This document shows, piece after piece, positions 9,544 through 54,000 of a stretch of DNA of 64,000 nt. Location: positions 27,327,288 through 27,391,287 of the forward strand of contig NC_081390.1 of NCBI RefSeq assembly GCF_030684315.1, written 5' to 3'. The notes beneath the pieces are model-generated. The model was not told the DNA's origin. It did not search any database and worked only from the letters and a program-made list of their open reading frames with translations. Origin of the DNA: Stegostoma tigrinum. Taxonomy: Eukaryota. Position 1 is the first letter of the stretch; every line of letters begins with the position of its first letter. The position numbers were made by a program, and so were the translations under genes.

Positions 9544-10548
9544 TGAGCTTCCGACGAAGCACTGGTGTTATGTCCCGCTTTCTATTTATCTGGTTAGGCT
9601 TCCTTGGGTTGGTGATGTCATTTCCTGTTCTTTTTCTCAGGGGATGGTAGATTGGCTCCAAGTCAATGTGTTTGTTGATGGTATTCCGGCTGGAATGCCA
9701 TGCTTCTAGGAATTCTCATGCATGTCTCTGTTTGGCTTGTCCTAGGATAGACGTGTTGTCCCAATCAAAGTGGTGTCCTTCCACATCTGTATGTAAAGAT
9801 ACGAGTGATAGTGGGTCATGTCGTTTTGTGTCTAGTTGATGTTCGTGTATCCTGGTGGCTAGCTTTCTGCCAATTTGTCCGATGTAGTGTTTGTCACAGT
9901 TCTTGCAAGGTATTTTGTAGATGACGTTCGTTTTATTTGTTGTGTGTATACGGTCTTTTAAGTTCATTAGCTGCTGTTTTAGTGTGTTGGTGAGTTTGTG
10001 GGCTACCCTGATGCCAAGAGGTCCGAGTAGTCTGGCAGTCATTTCGGAAATGTCTGCCAAACTACTTGGGCGTCTTGGCATCAGGGTAGCCCACAAACCC
10101 ACCAACACACTAAAACAGCATCTAATGAACTTAAATGACCCTATTCAGACAACAAACAAAACGAACGTCATCTACAAAATACCTTGCAAGAACTGTGACA
10201 AACACTACATCGGACAAATTGGCAGAAAGCTAGCCACCAGGATACACGAACATCAACTAGACACAAAACGACATGACCCACTATCACTCGTATCCTTACA
10301 TACAGATGTGGAAGGTCACCACTTTGATTGGGACAACACATCTATCCTAGGACAAGCCAAACAGAGACATGCACGAGAATTCCTAGAAGTATGGCATTCC
10401 AACCGGAATTCCATCAACAAACACATTGATTTGGAGCCAATCTACCATCCCCTGAGAAAAAGAACAGGAAATGACATCACCAACCCAAGGAAACCTAACC
10501 AGATAAATAGAAAACGGGACATAACACCAGCGCTTCGTCGGAAGCTCA

Positions 10549-10582
10549 CTGATGATGTTACCTAGAATGGTGACGAAACGTT
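10549..10582 (+). ncRNA. Minimal hammerhead ribozyme core in the PLE terminal repeat
   Basis: CTGATGA-tgttacc-tagaat-ggtgac-GAAAC-GTT: conserved boxes with a pairing stem II. Confidence 0.75.
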
Positions 10583-25463: not shown

Positions 25464-26399
25464 TTGTAGTTCGTCAATTGTATGCGTTTCAGATATTCAT
25501 TTAGGTGAAGTCAACTGGATGTCAAAGTGAAATGACTTGAAGGATTAGCACAGTGAGGAGATCACATTGTTAGTTTGGAGAAAGTAAATTATCCATTGAA
25601 CAGTAAATGTGAAGTTGCAAAATTCACTCCAATGCTGTTTATGTCTTAGGATTCCCCACAGCATCACTGATGAAAAGACTCAGTTGCTCACTCCTTCCCA
25701 AATGAAGCCCTTTTTTTAAACAAATATCTCACCTGAAATAACTTTACTTCCATGATGTAGAGATAAGTGACACAGTGAAATGCTGGATCATTCCACACTG
25801 AGAAGTTGGAGGTGGACAATTCATTGTTTATGCTCTGTTCTAACCAATAATACTGTCAATAACAAGTAGAAATAATGTCCCATGATCCAACTCCCAGGTA
25901 TTGTGAAATCATTAATGTATTTTGTAATTGCATGAGACCTATGCAGTATGCAATAATACATTGTTCAGGGTGTTTTCCACTAACACAATGCACAATACAC
26001 AATGAACCTCTGCACTTAGGGGATGAAAGACACTTTCTATGACACAGTAAAATAAACTATTACTGGTGTATTGGTGACCTCAATACAACAATAGGGGAAC
26101 TTAAAATACCAGATAGCATGTCACTCTGTAGGCAGTAGATACTGAAAATTACGTTGTACAGTCAGCAGGACACAGCAGATGATTTACCACTCTGCATGGC
26201 GCTATGTCGGGATAGAAATACAAACTCTTAATGAAACTTTTGCTTCCAAAATGGAAATTTTCCAGGTTAAAGGTCAGTTAATGTTTTTTGGTAACTGCTG
26301 TGTTTTCCAATGCTTTGATTAATAAGGTTCATCATTTGTGATGTCACTACCCATGTCCTTGTCTTTCTTTGTCTCTCCTTTCTCATTGGCTGATGCAAG

Positions 26400-26439
26400 G
26401 AGTTGAGGATGTTGTCCATTACTTCTATGATAAAGCGTG
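26400..26439 (+). CDS. Candidate 40-nt frame-shifting cassette exon (ELRMLSITSMIKR+G)
   Basis: Long pyrimidine tract 26356-26387, AG at 26398-99, donor GTG/gtatgg at 26440. Open in phase 0 and exits in phase 1. Three TGCATG motifs lie 32-64 nt downstream. No transcript evidence. Confidence 0.45.
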
Positions 26440-26471
26440 GTATGGTACAATGCAATCTAATCACTGCTGAC

Positions 26472-26503
26472 TGCATGCTGCATGTGTGGCATAACCCTGC
26501 ATG
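26472..26503 (+). promoter_or_regulatory. Cluster of three RBFOX-type TGCATG splicing elements
   Basis: TGCATG at 26472-77, 26479-84 and 26498-26503, directly downstream of a candidate donor. Confidence 0.5.
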
Positions 26504-37900: not shown

Positions 37901-38015
37901 CCTTCAATATTTAGATCCCAGTCCAGATCACCTTGTAGCCACATCTCAGTTATGACTAGCCGATTGTACTTCTTTATCTGAATTTGTTTTCAAATACAGG
38001 GCCTTAAATTTTGTC

Positions 38016-39390
38016 AGAGATAACAAGAACTGCAGATGCTGGAGAATTTGAGATAACAAGGTGTAGAGCTGGATGAACACAGCAGGCCAAGCGGCATCAG
38101 AAGAGCAGGAAGGCTGACATTTTGGACCTAGACCCTTCTTCAGAAATAGGGGAGGAGAAGGGGGTTCTGAAATAAATAGGGAGAGAGGGGGAGGCGGATA
38201 GAAGATGGATAGAGGAGAAGATAGGTGGAGAGGAGACAGACAGGTCAACGAGGCGGGAATGGAGTCAGTAAAGGTGAGTGTAGGTGGAGGGGTAGGGAGG
38301 GGATAGGTCAGTCTAGGGAGGACGGACAGGTCAAGGGGACAGGATGAGGTTAGTAGGTTTGTGATGGGGGTTGGGCTTGAGGTGGGAGGTGGGGGTAGGT
38401 GGGAGGAAGGACAGGTTAGGGAGGCGGGGACGAGCTGGGCAGGTTTTGGGATGAGGGTGGGGAGGGAAAAATGTCCCCTTTCTGGAGGGACCATTCTCTC
38501 AGTGTCTGCCTTGTCTGCTCCACACTCCCCTCCAGCCCCACCACACCCAGCACTTTTCCCTGCAACCGCAGGAAGTGCTACGCTTGCCCCTACACCTCCC
38601 CCTTCCCCCCCCGCCAATCCCAGGCTCCAAGAAGAATTTCCACATCAAGCAGATGTTCATCTGCACATCTGCTAATGTGGTATGCTACATCCGCTGTTCC
38701 CGTCGTGGCCTCCTCTACATCGGGGAAACCAAGCGGAGGTTTGGGGACCGCCTTGCAGAACACCTACACTCGGTTTGCACTAAACAACTGCGCCTCCTAG
38801 TCGCGAGCCATTTCAACTCCCCCTCCCATTCCTCAGACGACATGTCCATCATTAGCCTCCTGCAGTGCCACTATGATGCCACCCGAAGGTTGCAGGAACA
38901 GCAACTCATATTCTGCTTGGGAACCCTGCAGCCCAATGGTATCAATGTGGATTTCACAAGCTTCAAAATCTCCCCTTCCCCCACTGTATCCCAAAACCAG
39001 CCCAGCTTGTCCCCACCACCCTAACCAGTCCTTCCTCCCACCTAAATCCTCCTCCCACCCCAAGGCCCACCCCAATCTCCGACCTACTAACCTCATCCCG
39101 CCCCCTTGACCTGTCTGTCCTCCCTGGACTGACCTATCCCCTCCCTAACTGCCCACCTACACTCACCTTTACTGGCTCCATCTGCCTCTCTTTGACCTGT
39201 CTGTCTCCTCTCCATCTATCTCCTCCTCTATCCATCTTCTATCTTCCTCCGCTTCTCTCCCTATTTATTTCAAAATCCCTTGCCCCTCCCCATTTCTGAA
39301 GAAGGGCCTTGGCCCGAAACGTCAGCCTTCCTGCTCCTCTGATGCTGGCTGGCCTGCTGTGTTCATCCAGCTCTACACCTTGTTATCTCT
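38016..39390. mobile_element. Penelope-like element (Neptune-type), truncated, with inverted terminal repeats
   Basis: GIY-YIG ORF 38575..39024 (VVCYIRCSRRGLLYIGETKRRFGDRLAEH), preceded by the Cys linker PCNRRKCYAC. 38016-~38465 is an inverted copy of the 3' part. TSD TTAAAT(T/G)TTGTC at 38004-15 and 39391-402. Confidence 0.9.
39296..39323 (+). ncRNA. Minimal hammerhead ribozyme core
   Basis: CTGAAGA-agggc-cttg-gccc-GAAAC-GTC. Confidence 0.75.
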
Positions 39391-41049: not shown

Positions 41050-42349
41050 AGAACATAGAACATAGAACATAGAACAGTACAGCACAGAACAGGCCCTTCA
41101 GCCCACAATGTTGTGCCGACCATTGATCCTCATGGATGCACCCCCAAATTTCTGTGACCATATGCATGTCCAGCAGTCTCTTAAATGACCCCAATGACCT
41201 TGCTTCCACAACTGCTGCTGGCAACGCATTCCATGCTCTCACAACTCTCTGCGTAAAGAACCTGCCTCTGACATCCCCTCTATACTTTCCACCAACCAGC
41301 TTAAAACTATGACCCCTCGTGCTAGCCATTTCTGCCCTGGGAAATAGTCTCTGGCTATCGACTCTATCTATGCCTCTCATTATCTTGTATACCTCAATTA
41401 GGTCCCCTCTCCTCCTCCTTTTCTCCAATGAAAAGAGACCGAGCTCAGTCAACCTCTCTTCATAAGATAAGCCCTCCAGTCCAGGCAGCATCCTGGTAAA
41501 CCTCCTCTGAACCCTCTCCAAAGCATCCACATCTTTCCTATAATAGGGCGCCCAGAACTGGACGCAGTATTCCAAGTGCGGTCTAACCAAAGTTTTATAG
41601 AGCTGCAACAAGATCTCACGACTCTTAAACTCAATCCCCCTGTTAATGAAAGCCAAAACACCATATGCTTTCTTAACAACCCTGTCCACTTGGGTGGCCA
41701 TTTTAAGGGATCTATGTATCTGCACACCAAGATCCCTCTGTTCCTCCACGCTGCCAAGAATCCTATCCTTAATTCTGTACTCAGCTTTCAAATTCGACCT
41801 TCCAAAATGCATCACCTCGCATTTATCCAGGTTGAACTCCATCTGCCACCTCTCAGCCCATCTCTGCATCCTGTCAATGTCCCGCTGCAGCCTACAACAG
41901 CCCTCTACACTGTCAACGACACCTCCGACCTTTGTGTCGTCTGCAAACTTGCTGACCCATCCTTCAATTCCCTCGTCCAAGTCATTAATAAAAATTACAA
42001 ACAGTAGAGGCCCAAGGACAGAGCCCTGTGGAACCCCACTCACCACTGACTTCCAGGCAGAATATTTTCCTTCTACTACCACTCGCTGTCTTCTGTTGGC
42101 CAGCCAATTCTGTATCCAAGCAGCTAAGTTCCCCTGTATCCCATTCCTCCTGACCTTCTGAATGAGCCTTCCATGGGGAACCTTATCAAATGCCTTACTG
42201 AAGTCCATATACACCACATCCACAGCTTGACCCTCATCAACCTTACTAGTCACATCCTCAAAAAACTCGATAAGGTTTGTAAGGCATGACCTACCCCTCA
42301 CAAAGCCGTGTTGACTGTATTTGATCAAGCCATGCTCTTCCAGATGGTC
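41050..42349 (-). mobile_element. Young 5'-truncated CR1 LINE (RT C-terminal half) nested in the PLE endonuclease
   Basis: Uninterrupted 426-aa frame with [41 protein letters not shown]. (ATGTTCT)n tail. Flanked by AGTT at 41046-49 and 42350-53, where the PLE sequence resumes. Confidence 0.95.
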
Positions 42350-44568
42350 AGTTGCTGTTCCTGCAACCTTCGGGTGGCATCATTGTGGCACTGCAGGAGG
42401 CCCATGATGGACATGTTGTCTAAGGAATGGGAGGGGGAATTAAAATGGTTCGCGACTGGGAGGTGTAGGTATTTATTGCGAACCGAGCGGAGGTGTTCTG
42501 CAAAGCGGTCCCCAAGCCTCCGCCTGGTTTCCCCAATGTAGAGGAACACACACTGGGTACAGTGGATACAGTATACCACATTGGCAGATTTGCAGGTGAA
42601 CATCTGCTTCATGTGGAAAGCCATCTTGGGGCCTGGGATAGGGGTGAGGGAGGAGGTGTGGGGACAAGTGTAGCATTTCCTGCGGTTGCAGGGGAAGGTG
42701 CCGGGTGTGGTGGGGTTGGAGGGCAGTGTGGAGCGAACAAGGGAGTCATGGAGAGAGTGGTCTCTCCGGAAAGCAGAAAGGGGTGGGGATGGAAAAATGT
42801 CTTGGGTGGTGGGGTCGGATTGTAGATGGCGGAAGTGTTGGAGGATGATGCGTTATATCCGGAGGTTGGTGGGGTGGTGTGTGAGAACGAGGGGGATCCT
42901 CTGGGGGCGGTTGTGGCAGGGGTGGGGTGTGAGGGATGTGTTGCAGGAGATGCGGTCCAGGGTGTTCTCGACCACTGCGGGGGGAAAGTTGCGGTCCTTG
43001 AAGAACGTGGACATCTGGGATGTGCGGGAGTGGAATGCCTCATCCTGGGAGCAGATGCGGTGGAGGCAGAGGAATTGGGAATAGGGGATGGAATTTTTGC
43101 AGGAAGTTGGGTGGGAGGAGGTGTGTTCTAGGTAGCTGTGGGAGTTGGTGGGTTTGAAATGGACATCAGTTTCTAGCTGGTTACCTGAGATGGAGACTGA
43201 GAGGTCTAGGAAGGTGAGGGATGTGATGGAGATGGCCCAGGTGAACTGAAGGTTGGGGTGGAATGTGTTGGTGAAATGGATGAACTGTTCGAGCTCCTCT
43301 GGGGAGCAAGAGGCGGCGCCGATACAGTCATCACTGTAATGAAGGAAGAGGTGGGGTTTGGGGCCTGTGTAGGTGCGGAAGAGGGACTGTTCCACGTAGC
43401 CTACAAAGAGGCAGGCATAGCTGGGGCCCATGCGGGTACCCATGGCCACTCCCTTTGTCTGTAGGAAGTGGGAGGAATCGAAAGACAAGTTGTTAAGGGT
43501 GAGGACGAGTTCAGCTAGGCGGATGAGGGTGTCGCTGGAGGGGCATTGGTCGGGTCTGCGGGACAGGAAGAAGTGGAAGGCCTTGAGGCCATCTGCATGA
43601 GGAATACAGGTGTATAGGGACTGGACGTGAAAATAGTGGTGTTGGGGGCCAGGGAATTGGAAGTTCTGGAGGAGGTGGAGTGCGTGGGTGGTGTCACAGA
43701 CGTAGGTAGGGAGTTCCTGGACCAAAGGGGAGAAAATGGAGTCCAGATAGGTGGAGATGAGTTCGGTGGGGCAGGAACAGGCTGAGACAATGTGTCGATC
43801 AGGGCAGGCAGGTTTGTGGATTTTGGAAAGGAGATAGAAACGGGCCGTGCGGGGTTGGGGAACAGTGAGGTTGGAGGCTGTGGGTGGGAGGTCCCCTGAG
43901 GTGGTGAGGCCATGGATGGTGTTGGAGATGATGGTTTGGTGCTCGGGGGTGGGGTCGTGATCAAGGGGGTGGTAGGTGTCGGAGAGTTGGCGTTTGGCCT
44001 TGGCGATGTAGAGGTCAGTGCGCCATACTACCACTGCGCCTCCCTTGTCTGTGGGTTTGATGGTGAGGTTGGGGTTGGAGTGGAGGGCTGCCCATTCTGC
44101 AGGGGAGAGGTTGGAGTGGGTGAGAGGGGTGGAGAGGTTGAGGCGGTTGATGTCTCAATGGCAATTGGAGATGAAGAGTTCGAGGGAGTGTAGGAGGCCT
44201 AGGGGTGGTGTCTAGGAAGAGGACTTGTGTTGGAGGTGGGTGAAGGGGTCAGTGGAGGGAGGGTAGGCTCCCGGTTAGAGAAGTAAGCGTGGAGGCGAAG
44301 GCAGCGGAAAAACTGCTCGATGTGCAAACGTGACTGGTATTCATTGATGTGTGGGTGGAGAGGTCAAACGTGAGCCCCTTGCTTAGGACTGACCGTTCGT
44401 CCTCGGTCATTGGGAGGTCTGGGGGGCTGGTGAAGGTGCGGACTGACCTATCTCCTCCCTATGTCCCCACCTATACTCTCCTCTCCACCTAACTTCTTTT
44501 CTCTCCATCTTCAGTCTACCTCCCCCTCTCTTCCTATTTATTCCAGAACACACTCCCCATGCCCCTCT

Positions 44569-45027: not shown

Positions 45028-45630
45028 TAGAACATAGAACAGAACAGTAGAGCACAGAACAGGCCCTTCAGCCCACGATGTTGACCATTGATCCTAATGT
45101 ATGCACCCTCAAATTTCTGTGACCATATGCATGTCCAGCAGTCTCTTAAATGTCCCCAATGACCTTGCTTCCACAACTGCTGCTGGCAACGCATTCCATG
45201 CTCTCACAACTCTCTGTGTAAAGAACCCACCTCTGACATCCCCTCTATACTTTGCTCCAACCAGCTTAAAACTATGACCCCCTTGTGCTAGCCTTTTCTG
45301 CCCTGGGAAATAGCCTCTGGCTATCAACTCTATCTATGCCTCTCATTATCTTGTATACCTCAATTAGGTCCCCTCTCCTCCTCCTTTTCTCCAATGAAAA
45401 AAGTCCGAGCTCAGTCAACCTCTCTTCATAAGATAAGCCCTCCAGTCCAGGCAGCATCCTGGTAAACCTCCTCTGAACCCTGTCCAAAGCATCAACATCT
45501 TTCCTATAATAGGGCGCCCAGAACTGGACGCAGTATTCCAAGTGCGGTCTAACCAAAGTTTTATAGAGCTGCAACAAGATCTCACGACTCTTAAACTCAA
45601 TCCCCCTGCTAATGAAAGCCAAAACACCAT
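45028..45630 (-). mobile_element. 5'-truncated CR1 LINE, same subfamily as 41050-42349
   Basis: Nearly the same sequence as 41060-41665; ORFs 45272..45622 and 45109..45327 are separated by a frameshift. Confidence 0.92.
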
Positions 45631-46350
45631 GATATTTTCAATCCACCTTTTCCCTGGTGAAGTGCGGATGAGAAAGCTGATATTAAAATTGTTCAGACTT
45701 ACCCTTTCATTATTCAGTAACAGCTTAGTGACCTTAGTGATGTCTAAAGTGTAGCTGTAAAGCACACCTTACTCTCTTTGGTAGACACAGCGAATAATCC
45801 ATGTTACCCCATACTCCCATTCCACTCTGGGCGAGCCACTGTTTGGTTTGTAACAATAAAATAAAGAACACCATGCATTATTGAGTCACAAATAAGTAAA
45901 TGCTCATAGACCTGAGCTGCCTCGACATATTTGCCTTAGCAATTTAAGCCCTCATTAACAGAAAAGCGGAAAACGATGTAAAGAGAGCTATTAATGATGA
46001 AACCCTACATAAAAACTGAAAATTGCTGGAAATATACATCAAACCTGCCAGGTGGCCCCTGAAGAGAGAAAATAGGTTAACGTTGCAGCTTTAGCCTTTT
46101 GTGAGCTTTGAGCGAGCCTTCAACCATAAGTATTAACCTCTCTCTTCTCTTGACAGTTGCTGTCAAACCGGCTATGTATTTCCAACATGATATTGGAAGC
46201 ACACAGTGTAGTGTGGCAAATGCTATACAGCAGAAAATGCCTTTGACCGGAGTGTTTATTCGATAAATTCAAGTCGTTTCTGGTCACATCATGGAGTATT
46301 TTAATATATATATAATGCTCAAAACTTTTTCTAATTCATGTACGTACGTG

Positions 46351-47574: not shown

Positions 47575-50159
47575 TTTCTGCAAGTTGGTTATACATGTGG
47601 TATAGTTTGCAGGCCATTATACAGGTCCATACAAACAAGAATCATTCAGTTAACAATAGTACAACAAATGGATGCCATAAGGAGAGAGTACTGCCAAAGC
47701 TTTAGGTGACCACAACTTAAAAATCTCTCACAACAAGGATTTGTAAACTGAAAATCAATTGACCATGGCTAGAAATTACAGCAGTTTCTTGCCATAAGAA
47801 GTCATGGCGTACTGTTGCCAAATGCTGTGCAAGGAAGGCCCACAATTTTTTAAATGTCGCATGTGGAGGAACCCTTCTCGATCAATTGATGGTGTGATAC
47901 ACTTATCTCATTCTTTAATAAAGTAGGGCTTATGACCAATTGCATCATCAATAACAATAATTTCTCCCTATCTAAGCTGACAGTGTTTCTTTCTCTTATA
48001 ATTATGATAGACAATATAAGTGCTGGTCAATACACATGGTTAGGGCCTGTTTGCAAATCATTGTGCGGTAACTTCTCCATACTGCATATAGAGTACCCCT
48101 GCTCTGCTGCAGTATACATGATTCAAAGGTAGGAGTTTAGAAGGGACATATTAGGTCTTCTGACCACTGTTCACAATCATTTTCCTTGTGAGGTTGTTTG
48201 TTATAATCCAACCTCTTGCCAAAAAACACAGATATCCCCAAACAGATGAGGTAGAGTGAAAAACTAGCACCATATTTGCTCCTGTGTACTATTTAAAAGC
48301 AAAAAGTATTACACAGTATTACATACTGTGGCATTTCAATTAGCAATTAGCCTTTAACAGATCAGGTTTAAGTACTAAGTTAGCATGAGTTCTATGTTCT
48401 ATGTTGGTACCACTCGCTAGACTAGCATTTATTGCCCATTCCTAATTACCCTGCGGGCAGTTAAGGGGCAACTATATTGCTGTGGTTTTGAAGTCACATG
48501 TAGACCAGACCAAGTATGGATGGCAGATTTTCTTCCCTTAAGGGCAATTGTAAACCAGATGGGTCATTATTAGACTCTCTAGTCCCAGATTTTTATTAAC
48601 TTCAAATTCTACCACTTACCATATCAGGATTCAAACTTAGATCATCAGAAAATTATCTTGGTTTCTGTATTAATGCTGTAGCAATAACCCCACTAGGCCC
48701 TCCCTGTGGAAATTGTTGTTTTGGCTGAAAAGTATAATGTAATAACTCATTTTGATTCTTTTTGTTATAAGTATGCCTGTATAGAAACTAGGCTGCCATA
48801 TTGTGATAATTATGGGAGTCTTTTGTACTATTCTCCAATTTCTCAGTCAGGAATCTCAGATTTGTTCATTATTGTTGATGTAATCAGGGAATTTGCTTGC
48901 ACACTGGAATTACAAGGGCTTGTTGTGTTTCTGAGGTACTCTGAACCCTCGCCCTCCCTACAAATATCAAATGATTTTGAAATGTTGCACTCTGCCAAAT
49001 TGATCAGATATCAACGCGCCTGGAATCTCAAATCAACTTACACATAACCAAAGAATCTTAAGCTAAGATTGTAACAACATTTCAAGTGCAAAAAGACAGT
49101 GATATTATTTCTCCTGACCCAAAGCTGAATTTGCAAGCATCAACTGATCTGCGGATTTCCCTGACGTGAAGTAATTAGCCTCAAATTGACCTTGGGGAAT
49201 GCTTATCTACACTAACTAAATCTTATGGCCTTTAAATAACAGACTAGTTAAATATATTGCAATAACGCACACAATGAACTATACATAGTTAAAGTAATTG
49301 TAATGTTTGGATTTTCCAGAAAAAATGTCACAGGAGATTTTCCAGGTTTATCAATGTGCTTTCATTCTTGCAAATAGGCATGATAAGCAAGGCTGGAACT
49401 TATTGTCTATCCCTTGCTGCTGTCAATAAGATGCTGCTGAAGTGCCTACCATACTGAGTGACTTGCAGGTCACTTCAGACGATAGTTATGAGTTAACTAC
49501 ATTGTTTGAGGATTGCAGTCTAATACATTGTCAGATATGGATAAGATCACCAGGTTTCATTCTATGAAGGGCATTAATGAACTTATTGAGTTTTTACAGC
49601 AATCTACAGCTTCGTGGACATCAAAACCAGGTTTTAATTTTTAAAACTTTTTATTATTTCTAAATATTTTAAAACCAGATGCCAAATTCTGTAGTTGCTG
49701 TTGAATTGAACTCACATTTTCAGGATTGTTGTTTTAGAAATGCAATATAACTAAAGAGTAAGAATTTCATTTCTCATTTCTCTTGAATCTTCTCAACTAT
49801 GCTAATTTGCAATGGATATTACAGACAGACAGACAGCATGACTTATATGTGACTGTGCTGCAGGCAAGTTTTTTTTTCTCACCCATTCTGTGTGCTTCCT
49901 TATCATTCAGCAGTTACCAAATCCAATGGCTGCAAATCCTTCCTCTGTGATCTGCTTCAAGATTTCATGAAAGTCCTGCTGGATGACGGTTCCAGTTTCA
50001 TCCATGTTTGTATCATGTGCTTCTCTCAGACTGTCAATTCTATTCCTGCATGGTGTCGAGAAATGCAAAGCAAGCCAGCATGTCTTGTACCAGGAGTTTT
50101 TGTTCTCTGCAAAAGCAAAATCTAATCAATATGTTCTAAAATGCCTTTTCTTTCAACAG

Positions 50160-50254
50160 CCTCCAGTACTACAGCCTTCCAACCACATATGCAGCTCCAA
50201 AGAACACGACACTGGAAAAGTAGTAAAACCAATCCGTATCGAGGACCCCAGTAG
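50160..50254 (+). CDS. CCSER2: Alternative reading frame of the same terminal exon (short-isoform C-terminus)
   Basis: Entered in phase 1, it reads (x)SSTTAFQPHMQLQRTRHWKSSKTNPYRGPQ*, with TAG at 50252-54. The recalled human short isoform ends TSSTTAFQQPSQTHRSHPGKTNKATTYRGPQ*, the same length. Confidence 0.75.
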
Positions 50255-51089
50255 ATGTACAGAGAATGTGTCTTGTGACTGCCAAACCAACCAAAATGCA
50301 AAAGCTGCTGTTTCCTCGGAGATATCTTCAGATAAACTCAGCTTCCGTCAACCCATCCCACAAAAGTCAGGGGACTCTTCCCAAGAACAGCCAGGGTGTA
50401 AGAAGGTCAGACAAAATTCAAATTTTGCACCTAAGGAACATGGACACAGTCAGGTTTCAGTGCAGCAGACCAGTTTACGGAGCACTTCAGTATTTACAGA
50501 AGAATCCAGAAATAAAGACTTTCGGCCCAGGTTTGCTTTTAGACAGTGTGTACCTTCCAAAGATCCAAGTGTCAAATCCAAGACTCGGGCTTCAACAGTG
50601 AAGTCTTCTCAACTTTCCAAATCCAGAAAGAGTGCTGGCTCAGTCTCTCACCTAGGGATTTGCATTGGAGAACGTCCAGTTGATCTATCAATGAGAGATC
50701 AAAAGGAATCAGAACGTCAAGTCCCCCAACCAGTACATATCAACCTTACAACACCTAGCGACGAACAGCAAAAGAGAAAATCTAAACTTCCACCATCCCT
50801 ATCTTCACCACTTCTGACCATTAAAACAACAGTGTTTCCAACGAATCCTCAGCCACTTGTCAGGGAGAGTCAGCATGGCGAACCCAACAAACACAGGGAT
50901 GAATCCCATTTTGAGATTTTGCCATTCACCAAGCTGCAGAGAAAGCAGCCGCTCGGAGAAGACCATCCACGGAAGCTTCAGAGCTACGATTCCCAACCTG
51001 AGAAATCTTCAACCTCGTTCCGGCAATCCCGCCTTCCTCAACCAAAGATGCATGCATCCGGCCCCTCAAACAGCAGCTCCCAGAGTTGA
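50160..51089 (+). CDS. CCSER2: Terminal coding exon of coiled-coil serine-rich protein 2, long-isoform frame (309 aa + stop)
   Basis: Acceptor ttttctttcaacAG at 50158-59, branch-like ctaat near 50122, phase 0. The exon starts PPVLQPSNHICSSKEHDTGKVVKPIRIEDPS, versus recalled human PQVLQPSSSLPRPTDHTQGKLIKPQRIEARS. It ends SRLPQPKMH..., versus recalled human SRLPKPKIH. It is the only long non-transposon ORF in the window (track 49983..51089). Confidence 0.85.
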   Translation, partial: PPVLQPSNHICSSKEHDTGKVVKPIRIEDPSRCTENVSCDCQTNQNAKAAVSSEISSDKLSFRQPIPQKSGDSSQEQPGCKKVRQNSNFAPKEHGHSQVSVQQTSLRSTSVFTEESRNKDFRPRFAFRQCVPSKDPSVKSKTRASTVKSSQLSKSRKSAGSVSHLGICIGERPVDLSMRDQKESERQVPQPVHINLTTPSDEQQKRKSKLPPSLSSPLLTIKTTVFPTNPQPLVRESQHGEPNKHRDESHFEILPFTKLQRKQPLGEDHPRKLQSYDSQPEKSSTSFRQSRLPQPKMHASGPSNSSSQS

Positions 51090-54000
51090 CTGAAACCTTG
51101 CATTAAACATTTCTGTTTCAATTTACTTGCTGGAGAAGCTATAGACTTTAATTTTGAACCTGGCAACTGTTGACTTTGCTGTAATTTACTTAGCTCACTA
51201 TTGACCTGACTCTTAAAACAGCTCCTGCAGACCTGATTGATGCAATGTCAAAGACTTGGGCATTTGATGTCTCAAGACAATTTATATTTACAATTTGTGG
51301 CCTTTTTTTTTCTCTGAAATATGACAAAGTTACAGGTGTGGGAAGTTTTGATGAGGAGCTGGGGCGGTTTGGCGGGGGGTGTATAGGGAATAGCAGAATA
51401 GTTTGCTGTACAGCAGTTTATGAATCTGTAATGACCTGGACATGAAACATTTAGGTGTCAAGGATGACAATGATGCTGTGGGGAGGCTGTTTTTAAAGCA
51501 GATATTGTATTAATGGTTAAATGATACCATTGACCTCCATTTCAGTTGATCTGCATGAACATGTTGTGATTGGGAAGACAATTTGGAAAAAAAACTGCTC
51601 ATCCTAATCTAAAATAGCCTTACCAAGTTAAATATGTTTGTTTGCTTGGAGCCATCAGTTTAAGAATATATTTAAGTTAAAATTTTGGAGGCTTAGCTTT
51701 CTAAAATAAGTAATAAAATAACATCCTGCATTACGATGCTTGCTACAGAAATTATACTTGCTGGATCTTCACCAACAGCCTGCTGCTGTTCGACAAATGA
51801 ATGGACATTCAGTCCAATGGATAGATGCAAAAACAGTGAGAGGATAATTGTCCTTCAGGATGGTTTGCCAGAATCCCAGTGAAGCTATCCTGAAAGAAAG
51901 ACTATGGTTTATTTTCCAACTGAACTGGCACGGAGTGTTTTAAAATACAACTCTTCCATCTGTGAGCTGGGAGAGATCCAATATTAAAATCACTTAGTGA
52001 AAAGGGACTCTTGTGTTCCTCACCTACACCATCATTGTGCATGCAGGTCCTTCAAAATTAATGGTTGCTGTGAAACTGCCACTTAGCAACAAATATATTA
52101 CCTTGATAGGTAGTTACCAATTGTGTATTTTCAACTCCATGTATTAATGGTCTCGCGGGTCACGGCACTGACCTTTCACCCCGGTAGATCTGGATTCAAA
52201 ATCTGTCTGCCTCACTGGATGAAAGTTTTCTTTGCCAGTTTCTCTGGCTTTTAATGAACTTTGTTGAATCTTTTAGACAGTTTTGCAACCCAATTCCCCA
52301 CTGGCGCAAGTGCATAGAACAGAACTTTTTGCACTAATTTGACAGCCTCCCTCAGAAAGGTTACAGAAGCAGATGGTGTGGGAATTTAAAGATCCCTCAC
52401 TGATGTGCTGGGCAAACTGTATCCAACTCTGGAGCCATGTTGCTATGCTATGTCCTGGGCACAACGTTCATGTGTGCTGTACACGCGTGAAACAGAGAAA
52501 AATGTTGTCTCATTCGTATTGCCAAATGATACTGAACCCATTTCAGAAAGGGTCAAGATGATTTGAAATTGTTGAGTCCAAATACCAAAAATTCCACACT
52601 TAATTTGTTGGCATTCCTGTCTCTTCGGGTTGTATTTGGCAGTGTCCAATCATCAGTCTTCAGCGAGCTCATTCCCTGTAGCGTTGAGCTTGTGGTTTTA
52701 GATTGTCTGAATTCAATTCTTGCTGCTGCGATCAAGTGGCATTCTTGCCCTGGCCCTATTCACAGAAACCACATGAAACCTGTGACATCCACTTCAAACA
52801 GCAAATCAATTTCTTAAAATGGTAATTTTTACCTTTAGATTATAGGGAAAAAAGGCAAAATCAATGATTCTCATTAAGCCAGATTTTGAAGTTTGTTCTG
52901 GACTTTCGTTAGCATTTCACATGAAATGAGAATATGCTCTGCTGTTTCAAAGCTGCAGTCCTGTGCTAACTTTAAATATCTTCACACATACACATTGAAC
53001 ACACACTGAGTTGGTGGTACGTCTGGAGGTGAGTTTTCCTCTTCATTATCTGCTAACAAAATCCTTTTTGGATGTTGGTAGATGAAGCAAATGGAAGAGG
53101 TTTTCAACTGCTAATGAGAGTTGGTGTTGAGGGTAAATAGCCCTGATTTTTCTGGTTATCTTTACATTGTTGGCAGTGCTTTATAACCAGAGGAAATCTC
53201 CAATGGACCAACACCTGCCACCCCCCCACCCCAATCTTAACACATAAACTGCTGAATCGGTCTCATTGCAGTTACACATGACTTCACTTCTCAGAGCCTG
53301 TTCCCATTCTGTCTATTCTTACATCTGTAAATAGTTTGCTGGTACAGATCATAGTGAACCAGGAACAGAATGATATATTATTTAAGTTGAGGCCTTTTTC
53401 TATGCATTAGATTCATCTGCAGAGTCAGTGACATTATCTGATGGTGAAGTCAGAAATGTCAGCATGGAAGAGGACTGGACAGTCCTGCATTCAATGCTGC
53501 AACCTGCTTCGCATCACAGCTTACCCACTCTGATCTCACTCTGCTTGCTCGTTTCCTAATCTTCCTCAATATTTATCATAGCTGCCATGAATTGTTGCTA
53601 CAAGAATAGTTCTTGCTGAAAATTACAGCACAAATATAACGTAAAACTGGCTACATGACAAAAGTTGAGAACCTGAATAGCTCAAGCCAAGTGTAAAATA
53701 TTATTTGTCAATTGGATCTGCATGTCTTTGCTGGTTTATAAATAACAGGGTGAAATTATAAATGGTATCAATCTAAATGGTTATATCTAGAGTTTCTGTA
53801 CCAGTCAATGTTGCGTGACATCGGAGATGCAGAGTTGAGACCCAGTGCAGTTCCCACTGGGTTAGAGAGCAGGAGTTATGGAGGAGGAGGCACAAAACTC
53901 AGTTGCCTTTTGGAAGTCATACACTCTTATTTATGTTTCATAATTCCATTATAAATTCCATAATCCGTATTTATAATAGAAGTGTCAGTGTGAACTTGTC

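What the first reader, a model, noticed from the sequence alone, without database searches (positions are those of the whole stretch)
50160..50254. Dual-frame coding at the start of the CCSER2 last exon, apparently conserved from shark to human
Seen: the same 95 nt give PPVLQPSNHICSSKEHDTGKVVKPIRIEDPS... (open for 309 codons) in phase 0 and SSTTAFQPHMQLQRTRHWKSSKTNPYRGPQ* in phase 1. Recalled: both peptides resemble the two human CCSER2 C-termini, with identical SSTTAFQ and YRGPQ* ends and the stop at the same position. Inference: a frame switch that removes the SxLP-containing tail has been kept across jawed vertebrates. Because the stop is in the last exon, the short form would escape NMD.
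Basis: partly seen in the sequence, partly recalled or inferred. Interest (0 to 1): 0.8.

Follow-up and report, generated by a model that had tools for sequence, protein, structure and literature searches.

The report
CCSER2 last exon read three ways
The last exon of this shark's CCSER2 gene encodes three different protein tails in its three reading frames, chosen by two small optional exons, which likely tunes how strongly the protein follows microtubule tips; this is already published for CCSER2, but the same switch appears here in the sister gene CCSER1 and in lamprey gene models, so it is likely older than reported.

Summary
Real, but already described. 50160 starts the last exon of shark CCSER2. 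It is read in three frames, not two: phase 0 (309 aa, two SxLP motifs), phase 1 (30 aa, ending YRGPQ*) through an 85-nt cassette 7.4 kb upstream of the window, and phase 2 (20 aa) when a 40-nt micro-exon at 26400-26439 is added. All three joins match database proteins exactly. Contigs of related sharks show the phase-0 and phase-1 junctions; phase 2 was seen in 0 of 8 runs. Phase 1 is conserved beyond what phase 0 forces; phase 2 is not shown to be, within the overlap. A 2026 bioRxiv preprint already names CCSER2 as a triple-coding exon conserved across jawed vertebrates, and the 85-nt and 40-nt exons appear in earlier supplements. Corrections: the short forms keep the N-terminal SxLP, and crocodilians and some frogs move the stop. 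Not found in my searches: shark CCSER1 has a 46-nt cassette and a phase-1 tail ending RGPI*, and two lamprey genes have modelled isoforms ending RGPQ*. The switch therefore likely predates jawed vertebrates and the CCSER1/CCSER2 duplication. The scan's notes held no CCSER2 finding.

The parts
26360..26399 (+). Acceptor region of micro-exon B: pyrimidine tract set back from an AAG acceptor, with TGC at 26394-26396 (an SRRM4-type feature; label recalled)
   Evidence: sequence
26400..26439 (+). Cassette micro-exon B, 40 nt, GTATGG donor; with cassette A it puts the last exon into phase 2
   Evidence: tblastn of isoform tails; spliced translation equals P0054; a human 40-nt FAM190B exon is listed as brain-specific
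26440..26444 (+). 5-nt extension to a second donor (GTACAA); a 45-nt exon B would return the last exon to phase 1
   Evidence: sequence; such an isoform is modelled in Scyliorhinus canicula, P0020; no exact match for this species
26472..26503 (+). Three TGCATG (RBFOX) motifs downstream of exon B
   Evidence: the only one of 978 100-nt intron bins with two or more
50136..50159 (+). Acceptor of the last exon (pyrimidine tract, CAG), shared by all three phases
   Evidence: contigs break off at exactly 50160 in 6 of 8 runs
50160..51089 (+). Last exon, phase 0: 309-aa tail of the long isoform
   Evidence: equals the end of P0165
50160..50254 (+). Last exon, phase 1: split codon plus 30 aa, ending YRGPQ*
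   Evidence: equals the end of P0167; junction seen in X1, X6 and X8
50160..50223 (+). Last exon, phase 2: split codon plus 20 aa; all three frames overlap here
   Evidence: equals the end of P0054; junction seen in 0 of 8 runs
50781..50792 (+). SKLP, an SxIP-type motif, phase 0 only
51027..51038 (+). SRLP, the terminal SxIP-type motif, phase 0 only; present in all 9 long forms scanned

Best explanation
The last exon of CCSER2 encodes three different tails, selected by two frame-shifting cassette exons, and the switch likely lowers microtubule plus-end targeting while leaving the Ndel1-binding core intact. Skipping both cassettes gives the long tail with two SxLP motifs. Including the 85-nt exon A gives a short basic tail ending RGPQ. 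Adding the 40-nt exon B gives a third tail. Shown here: the exon anatomy and phases, exact matches to three database isoforms, two of the three junctions in relatives, and constraint on phase 1. Taken from papers on other species: exon B is brain-specific in human, and exon A responds to RBPMS2 in human and zebrafish heart cells. Inferred for the shark: RBFOX drives exon B and RBPMS-type proteins drive exon A; short forms bind EB1 less avidly, having lost the two tail motifs; the free RGP-x end has a function of its own with an unknown partner. Odds: anatomy 0.97, selection on phase 1 0.9, tissue control as described 0.65, EB-avidity tuning as the main effect 0.55.
For: Exons U (99 nt, ends in phase 0), A (85 nt) and B (40 nt) have AG acceptors and GT donors; the joins U-L, U-A-L and U-A-B-L equal P0165, P0167 and P0054 from exon U to the stop. 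Loose ends at 50160 are the end of U in X3, X4 and X10, the end of A in X1 and X6, and both in X8, where 29 of 30 columns are explained by U or A. All three tails are annotated in sharks, rays, chimaera, frog, lizard, turtle, cat and rat, and teleost-like representatives carry all three types. Phase-1 identity in 25 shark-tetrapod pairs is 13-18 of 30, against 4.6-6.6 under saturated recoding of phase 0 (p at most 0.001 in 25 of 25) and 9.0-12.4 under half saturation (p<0.05 in 24 of 25); the pairs are not independent. At the RGP site the phase-0 residues vary (EDP, EAH, EGP, AGR, ADL, EDR) in the way that synonymous changes of phase-1 R-G-P would produce. The 85-nt length is the same in human and mouse. 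Three TGCATG lie behind exon B, and six CAC in the 100 nt behind exon A, a count reached by 14 of 978 bins; these are the activating positions described in PMC4317164 and PMC6613909. SxIP dependence of tip tracking and the Ndel1 site at residues 657-687, upstream of the switch, come from PMC10486078 and bioRxiv 2024.06.13.598865.
Against: The B-L junction was seen in 0 of 8 runs. All runs are contigs of other species, of unknown tissue, whose RNA status is guessed. Within the overlap, phase 2 exceeds the half-saturated null in only 3 of 25 pairs, and its open frame with stop is largely forced by phase 0 (0.14-0.56 per species); the case for it rests on exon B. Crocodilians lose the RGPQ end (7 of 120 tails) and Xenopus laevis runs on to 41 residues; the preprint adds premature stops in bats. 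Against a close relative the overlap is no less substituted than the rest of the exon: 3 in 95 nt against 28 in 835 (low power). CCSER2 with all four SxLP motifs mutated still partly rescues knockout cells, so tip tracking may not be what matters. RBPMS2 loss is tabulated in opposite directions in zebrafish and human. In the passages I read, no experiment tests a short-tail isoform.
Confidence: 0.72

Rival explanations
1. The short frames are only a way to cut the tail off without triggering NMD; their sequence does not matter and is dragged along by phase 0.
For: Phase 2 in the overlap fits this. Crocodilians tolerate loss of the last nine residues. The tails are short and have no Pfam match (phase 0 and phase 1 tested).
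Against: Phase 1 is as conserved as phase 0 over the same bases, or more so (13-18 of 30 against 13-17 of 31). RGP-x-stop stays while the phase-0 residues change, in CCSER2, CCSER1 and lamprey genes. The peptide of exon B, which codes only in the phase-2 form, is conserved from sharks to mammals.
Confidence: 0.13
2. The short form is the default product, and the long frame is a splicing-accessible coding 3'UTR whose main effect is on protein stability or interactions, as in the model of Preussner et al. 2020.
For: CCSER2 is listed in that paper's tables with exactly this 85-nt skip. Q9H7U1-1, one of the frames, is the UniProt canonical form with protein-level evidence. The lamprey models share the short RGPQ end but not the terminal SRLP motif.
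Against: The long tail carries motifs shown to be needed for tip tracking, which is a more specific role than stability. Stability was not tested here. This reading is partly compatible with the best one.
Confidence: 0.1
3. The first 95 nt are conserved as RNA (splicing enhancers or a structure next to a very long intron), and the conserved short peptides follow from that.
For: The most conserved part is the first 25 nt or so, next to the acceptor of a 23.7-kb intron.
Against: The second conserved block lies 80-95 nt into the exon and varies at the positions that are synonymous in phase 1. A substitution in two other species turns the phase-2 stop TAG into TAA (one event).
Confidence: 0.05

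Closest known systems
Human CCSER2 triple coding exon (Tress et al., bioRxiv 10.64898/2026.05.28.727796; abstract, passages and sections 8, 16, 21, 25 read; supplements closed)
   Same: Same gene and exon, three frames, three C-termini; reported as conserved to the earliest jawed vertebrates, with peptide support and low dN/dS in all three frames.
   Different: Its main text never mentions CCSER1 (0 hits) and does not place CCSER2 among the families whose switch predates gene duplication. It calls the isoform functions unknown.
Splicing-accessible coding 3'UTRs (Preussner et al. 2020, PMC7392665; search listing and supplement rows seen)
   Same: Human and mouse CCSER2 rows show the 85-nt penultimate exon, both C-termini and the stop in the last exon, supported by RNA-seq.
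   Different: The rows seen cover two frames in two mammals; CCSER1 had 0 hits in its supplements.
Brain-specific RBFOX-type micro-exons (Li et al. 2015, PMC4317164; passages and one supplement row seen)
   Same: [quoted passage not shown]
   Different: I match it to exon B by gene and length, not by sequence. Shark tissue specificity is untested.
SxIP-motif plus-end tracking proteins; CCSER2/Gcap14 (PMC10486078, parts 1-2 of 3 read; PMC9974511 and bioRxiv 2024.06.13.598865, passages read)
   Same: The long shark isoform has the N-terminal and terminal SxLP motifs.
   Different: The constructs appear to be long-tail forms (1038 and 485 aa in mouse; inferred from rat forms of 1036 and 483 aa). 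No short tail is examined in the passages read.
Ancient dual-coding last exons of microtubule genes: NDEL1, MAP2/MAP4/MAPT, MARK, DCLK (same preprint, passages read)
   Same: A frame-shifting cassette before a last exon, shared by paralogues in several families.
   Different: The CCSER1/CCSER2 pair would be a further such family; it is not named there.

Membership tests
CCSER2 orthologue | Best hits and exon series of CCSER2 rather than CCSER1 | tested here: met
   (nine exons in order on C49); CCSER1 lies on C1
Alternatively spliced dual/triple coding exon | Frames open to a conserved stop across clades | tested here: met
   108 of 120 phase-1 tails have 30 aa and 59 of 67 phase-2 tails have 20 aa. 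The set is redundant (64 distinct phase-1 tails) and was partly found with a phase-1 query.
Alternatively spliced dual/triple coding exon | Frame-changing exons with intact splice sites | tested here: met
   85-nt and 40-nt exons with AG/GT ends
Alternatively spliced dual/triple coding exon | Transcripts enter in phase 0 and in phase 1 | tested here: met
   phase 0 in 4 and phase 1 in 3 of 8 runs of related species, one run showing both
Alternatively spliced dual/triple coding exon | Transcripts enter in phase 2 | tested here: inconclusive
   0 of 8 runs, tissues unknown; RefSeq models only
Alternatively spliced dual/triple coding exon | Selection on the phase-1 frame | tested here: met
   recoding nulls and the pattern of phase-0 variation; protein-based, not a dN/dS
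Alternatively spliced dual/triple coding exon | Selection on the phase-2 frame inside the overlap | tested here: inconclusive
   above the saturated null in 25 of 25 pairs, above the half-saturated null in 3 of 25
Alternatively spliced dual/triple coding exon | Peptide evidence for each frame | not testable with these tools
   reported for human in the preprint
SxIP plus-end tracking protein | [S/T]x[I/L]P motifs | tested here: met
   six pattern matches in the long form and four in the short forms; residue 13 (12 of 12 proteins) and the terminal one (9 of 9 long forms) are the conserved ones
SxIP plus-end tracking protein | EB1 binding and comet tracking | not testable with these tools
   shown for human and mouse forms in papers
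Brain-specific RBFOX-type micro-exon (exon B) | At most 51 nt, with TGCATG in the downstream intron | tested here: met
   40 nt; three motifs 32-63 nt downstream; 1 of 978 bins
Brain-specific RBFOX-type micro-exon (exon B) | Inclusion restricted to neural tissue | not testable with these tools
   human listing only
RBPMS-regulated exon (exon A) | CAC cluster next to the exon | tested here: inconclusive
   6 CAC in 100 nt downstream, reached by 14 of 978 bins and noticed after the fact; human 85-nt and zebrafish 82-nt orthologues respond to RBPMS2 loss
Dual-coding last exon in CCSER1 | A 3n+1 cassette and an open phase 1 ending RGP-x-stop | tested here: met
   46-nt exon and a 27-aa tail ending RGPI* in G000; two damselfish RefSeq isoforms end RGPL*
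Dual-coding last exon in CCSER1 | Transcripts that use the cassette in sharks or mammals | not tested

The most novel reading that the evidence does not exclude
The switch between a long tail and a short tail ending R-G-P-x was already present in the single CCSER gene of the vertebrate ancestor, before jawless and jawed vertebrates split and before CCSER1 and CCSER2 duplicated. It has been kept in both paralogues because the free RGP-x C-terminus is a functional motif with an unidentified partner. CCSER1, a fragile-site cancer gene, would then have an overlooked short isoform, and the brain-specific third frame would be a later addition in CCSER2.
Probability: 0.6. Interest if true: 0.5.

Novelty: already known. 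Interest (0 to 1): 0.3.

Why it matters
For CCSER2 the shark adds an independent confirmation of a published triple-coding exon and spells out how the frames are chosen. The published cell biology appears to concern the long tail, while two conserved and regulated tails remain untested. The extension to CCSER1 and lampreys makes the switch older than reported and points to a four-residue C-terminal motif that is easy to test in a Ndel1/dynein regulator.

Tried and rejected
Pfam: no family for the phase-0 or phase-1 peptide. tblastn of long isoforms found no other CCSER2 exon in the window; the upstream exons lie outside it. No RNA holder was listed for the window's own species, so only relatives were laid; 8 of the 14 listed runs were used. 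X2 and X5 run through the acceptor into the intron and say nothing on splicing. A possible second acceptor 7 nt into the exon (CAG ending at 50166) was used by none of the 6 runs with a loose end there. The joins U-B40-L, U-B45-L and U-A-B45-L match no stored protein exactly. I first read mouse isoform 'A85' as the 85-nt form; the supplement gives it 485 aa, so it is no test of a short tail. The cassette search in the CCSER1 intron used six queries; only the clownfish one gave a convincing exon, and the top hits of the other five were not convincing. The lamprey and damselfish recoding values were one codon out of register and are replaced. The tree leaves the Lampetra gene unresolved and joins the Lethenteron gene to CCSER1 only at 86/84, on long branches. 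The protein atlas could not be reached. No fold or complex was predicted: the tails are short, and SxIP-EB1 is a textbook pair. No CCSER hit in the supplements of PMC13247117. PMC8321653 (passages) describes only a rearranged CCSER1 form.

Full report
Observation. At 50160, after a pyrimidine tract and CAG, phase 0 is open for 309 codons and phase 1 gives a 30-residue peptide ending YRGPQ with its stop at 50252-50254. The remaining frame gives 20 residues, stop at 50221-50223. The long frame finds six chondrichthyan proteins, five named CCSER2. In the window's genome the upstream coding exons lie in order on the same contig over about 565 kb.

Anatomy. Database isoforms of sharks, rays and chimaera showed three kinds of tail. 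Their exons map as follows. Exon U is at G000:C49:27279734-27279832 (99 nt, ends in phase 0). Cassette A is at 27319868-27319952 (85 nt, 7.4 kb upstream of the window). Cassette B is at window 26400-26439 (40 nt). The last exon L starts at 50160. The introns are 40.0, 33.7 and 23.7 kb. U-L, U-A-L and U-A-B-L translate letter for letter into the ends of three RefSeq isoforms labelled Stegostoma tigrinum (P0165, P0167, P0054), so the window is from the zebra shark or a very close relative, and its annotation already holds all three forms. Three other joins matched no stored protein.

Transcripts. No RNA run of the same species was listed. I laid 8 of the 14 listed runs, all contigs of three other species, with guessed RNA status. 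Six have loose ends at exactly 50160: the end of U in X3, X4 and X10, the end of A in X1 and X6, and two contigs in X8 whose mixed consensus is explained by U or A in 29 of 30 columns. X2 and X5 continue into the intron. B-L was seen in 0 of 8.

Conservation and selection. Of 120 phase-1 tails retrieved (64 distinct; partly found with a phase-1 query), 108 have 30 residues and 101 of these end RGPQ. Seven crocodilian tails stop at 21 residues, two teleost-type tails have 29, coelacanth has 31 and two frogs have 32 and 41. Of 67 phase-2 tails, 59 have 20 residues. With only the phase-0 protein fixed, phase 1 keeps its open frame and stop in 0.6-11% of draws per species (16 species sets), and phase 2 in 14-56%. 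In 25 shark-tetrapod pairs, which are not independent, phase-1 identity (13-18 of 30) exceeds the saturated null in all and the half-saturated null in 24. Phase 2 (8-11 of 20) exceeds the half-saturated null in only 3. At the RGP site the phase-0 residues change freely among the options that leave phase-1 R-G-P intact: 66 of 80 long CCSER2 forms can carry RGP-x-stop in a 45-residue window, against 0.21 such sites per 45 residues further downstream. Against a close relative the overlap showed no drop in substitutions, 3 in 95 nt against 28 in 835. These tests are protein-based and do not replace a dN/dS.

Regulation. A 40-nt FAM190B exon is on the list of 145 brain-specific human micro-exons, and downstream TGCATG marks alternatively spliced micro-exons (PMC4317164; passages and one supplement row). 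Shark exon B has three such motifs, the only bin of 978 with two or more. The human 85-nt exon and a zebrafish 82-nt orthologue respond to RBPMS2 loss, tabulated in opposite directions (PMC9770155; passage and one row). RBPMS activates through downstream CAC clusters (PMC6613909; passages), and shark exon A has six CAC in the next 100 nt, a count reached by 14 of 978 bins. That these factors act in the shark is inference.

Consequence for the protein. The short forms lose the SxLP motifs at residues 991 and 1073 and keep the one at residue 13, which was found in 12 of 12 proteins scanned. Human CCSER2 has four motifs; mutating the first and fourth reduces comets, yet the all-four mutant partly rescues knockout cells, and the Ndel1 site (657-687) lies upstream of the switch (bioRxiv 2024.06.13.598865; passages). 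In a construct that starts at an internal methionine (my reading of its primer), deleting both tail motifs abolished microtubule binding (PMC10486078; parts 1-2 of 3). I infer graded loss of tip tracking in full-length short forms and complete loss in N-terminally short ones. The stops lie in the last exon, and the human isoforms are tabulated as no_NMD (PMC13160074; supplement rows).

What is known. The preprint 10.64898/2026.05.28.727796 names CCSER2 in its abstract as a triple-coding region under selection in all three frames, with peptides for each and conservation to the earliest jawed vertebrates (abstract, passages and four sections). Preussner et al. 2020 list the 85-nt skip and both C-termini for human and mouse (supplement rows). 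The finding as given is therefore already known.

What goes further. A search of cluster representatives brought up two lamprey genes, each with a long and a short RefSeq model. Both short models end RGPQ*, and each pair fits one DNA read in phases 0 and 1 over 26-28 residues. The Lampetra cassette is 28 codons plus one base, i.e. 85 nt as in CCSER2 (inferred from the peptides). In the window's own genome, the last exon of CCSER1 (C1:8519057, minus strand) reads 27 residues ending RGPI* in phase 1, while its phase 2 closes after 3. In the 428-kb intron before it, the best of 2,607 candidate exons for a clownfish CCSER1 cassette is a 46-nt exon with a GTGAGT donor and a shared SSRRQ motif; 1 of 200 shuffled queries scored as high. 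All 6 long CCSER1 forms at hand (two skates, a shrew and three teleost-type) can carry RGP-x-stop at the site, against a background of 0.10. The chance of open frame, stop and RGP given phase 0 alone is 0.002-0.016 for these four genes.

Caveats on the extension. The lamprey isoforms are predicted models that I did not check against RNA, and the Lampetra long tail looks atypical. Lamprey orthology is unresolved. The shrew model has an in-frame 15-residue segment where the shark has the 46-nt exon. No RNA was laid on CCSER1. I found no report of this in the main text of the preprint (0 hits for CCSER1), in the supplements of PMC13160074, PMC7392665 or PMC13247117, or in the listings of searches for CCSER1 with CCSER2, dual coding, FAM190A or lamprey. 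The preprint's own supplements were closed, and most subscription journals are not searched. The scan's earlier notes contain no CCSER2 finding, only other genes with dual-frame last exons; they did not change my reading.

Verdict. Interest 0.3, carried by the CCSER1 and lamprey extension and by the conserved RGP-x end.

Noticed in passing
G000:C1:8703029-8702984 and last exon from 8519057, minus strand (L022, L049): Shark CCSER1 has a 46-nt frame-shifting cassette and a phase-1 tail ending RGPI*, matching the CCSER2 arrangement.
   Followed up: partly
P0347/P0407 (Lampetra) and P0412/P0413 (Lethenteron): Two lamprey CCSER-family genes have long and short RefSeq models; both short ones end RGPQ*.
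   Followed up: partly
end of exon U, G000:C49:27279734-27279832 (L016): A K-x-T-Q-T motif sits just before the switch in CCSER2 and CCSER1 and in one lamprey gene (the other has R-G-T-Q-T). It fits the dynein light chain LC8 consensus (K/R)xTQT quoted in one abstract; no listed title addressed LC8 binding to CCSER proteins.
   Followed up: partly
P0065, P0202, P0205, P0206, P0208, P0211, P0212: Crocodilians have an earlier phase-1 stop that removes the RGPQ end, a natural loss of the motif.
   Followed up: no
P0149, P0153, P0216 and a mouse row: Mammals have a second donor that lengthens exon A by 48 nt in frame; the shark read-through does not resemble it at peptide level.
   Followed up: no
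P0225, P0226, P0230: Lacertid lizard models hold a further exon after A that returns the last exon to phase 0, giving a long form that includes A.
   Followed up: no
exon B peptide, window 26400-26439: V-E-x-(L/V)-V-x-Y-F-x-D-x-x-C is conserved from sharks to teleosts and mammals and may form an amphipathic helix (inference); its partner is unknown.
   Followed up: no
window 41051-44154, 45275-45768, 9719-10562, 37949-39296: The introns hold long reverse-transcriptase-like and endonuclease-like ORFs that look like LINE and Penelope-type retroelement copies (labels recalled, not searched).
   Followed up: no
window 51712-51717: First AATAAA after the long stop, a candidate polyadenylation signal; one contig (X1) has 539 further letters past 51300.
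   Followed up: no
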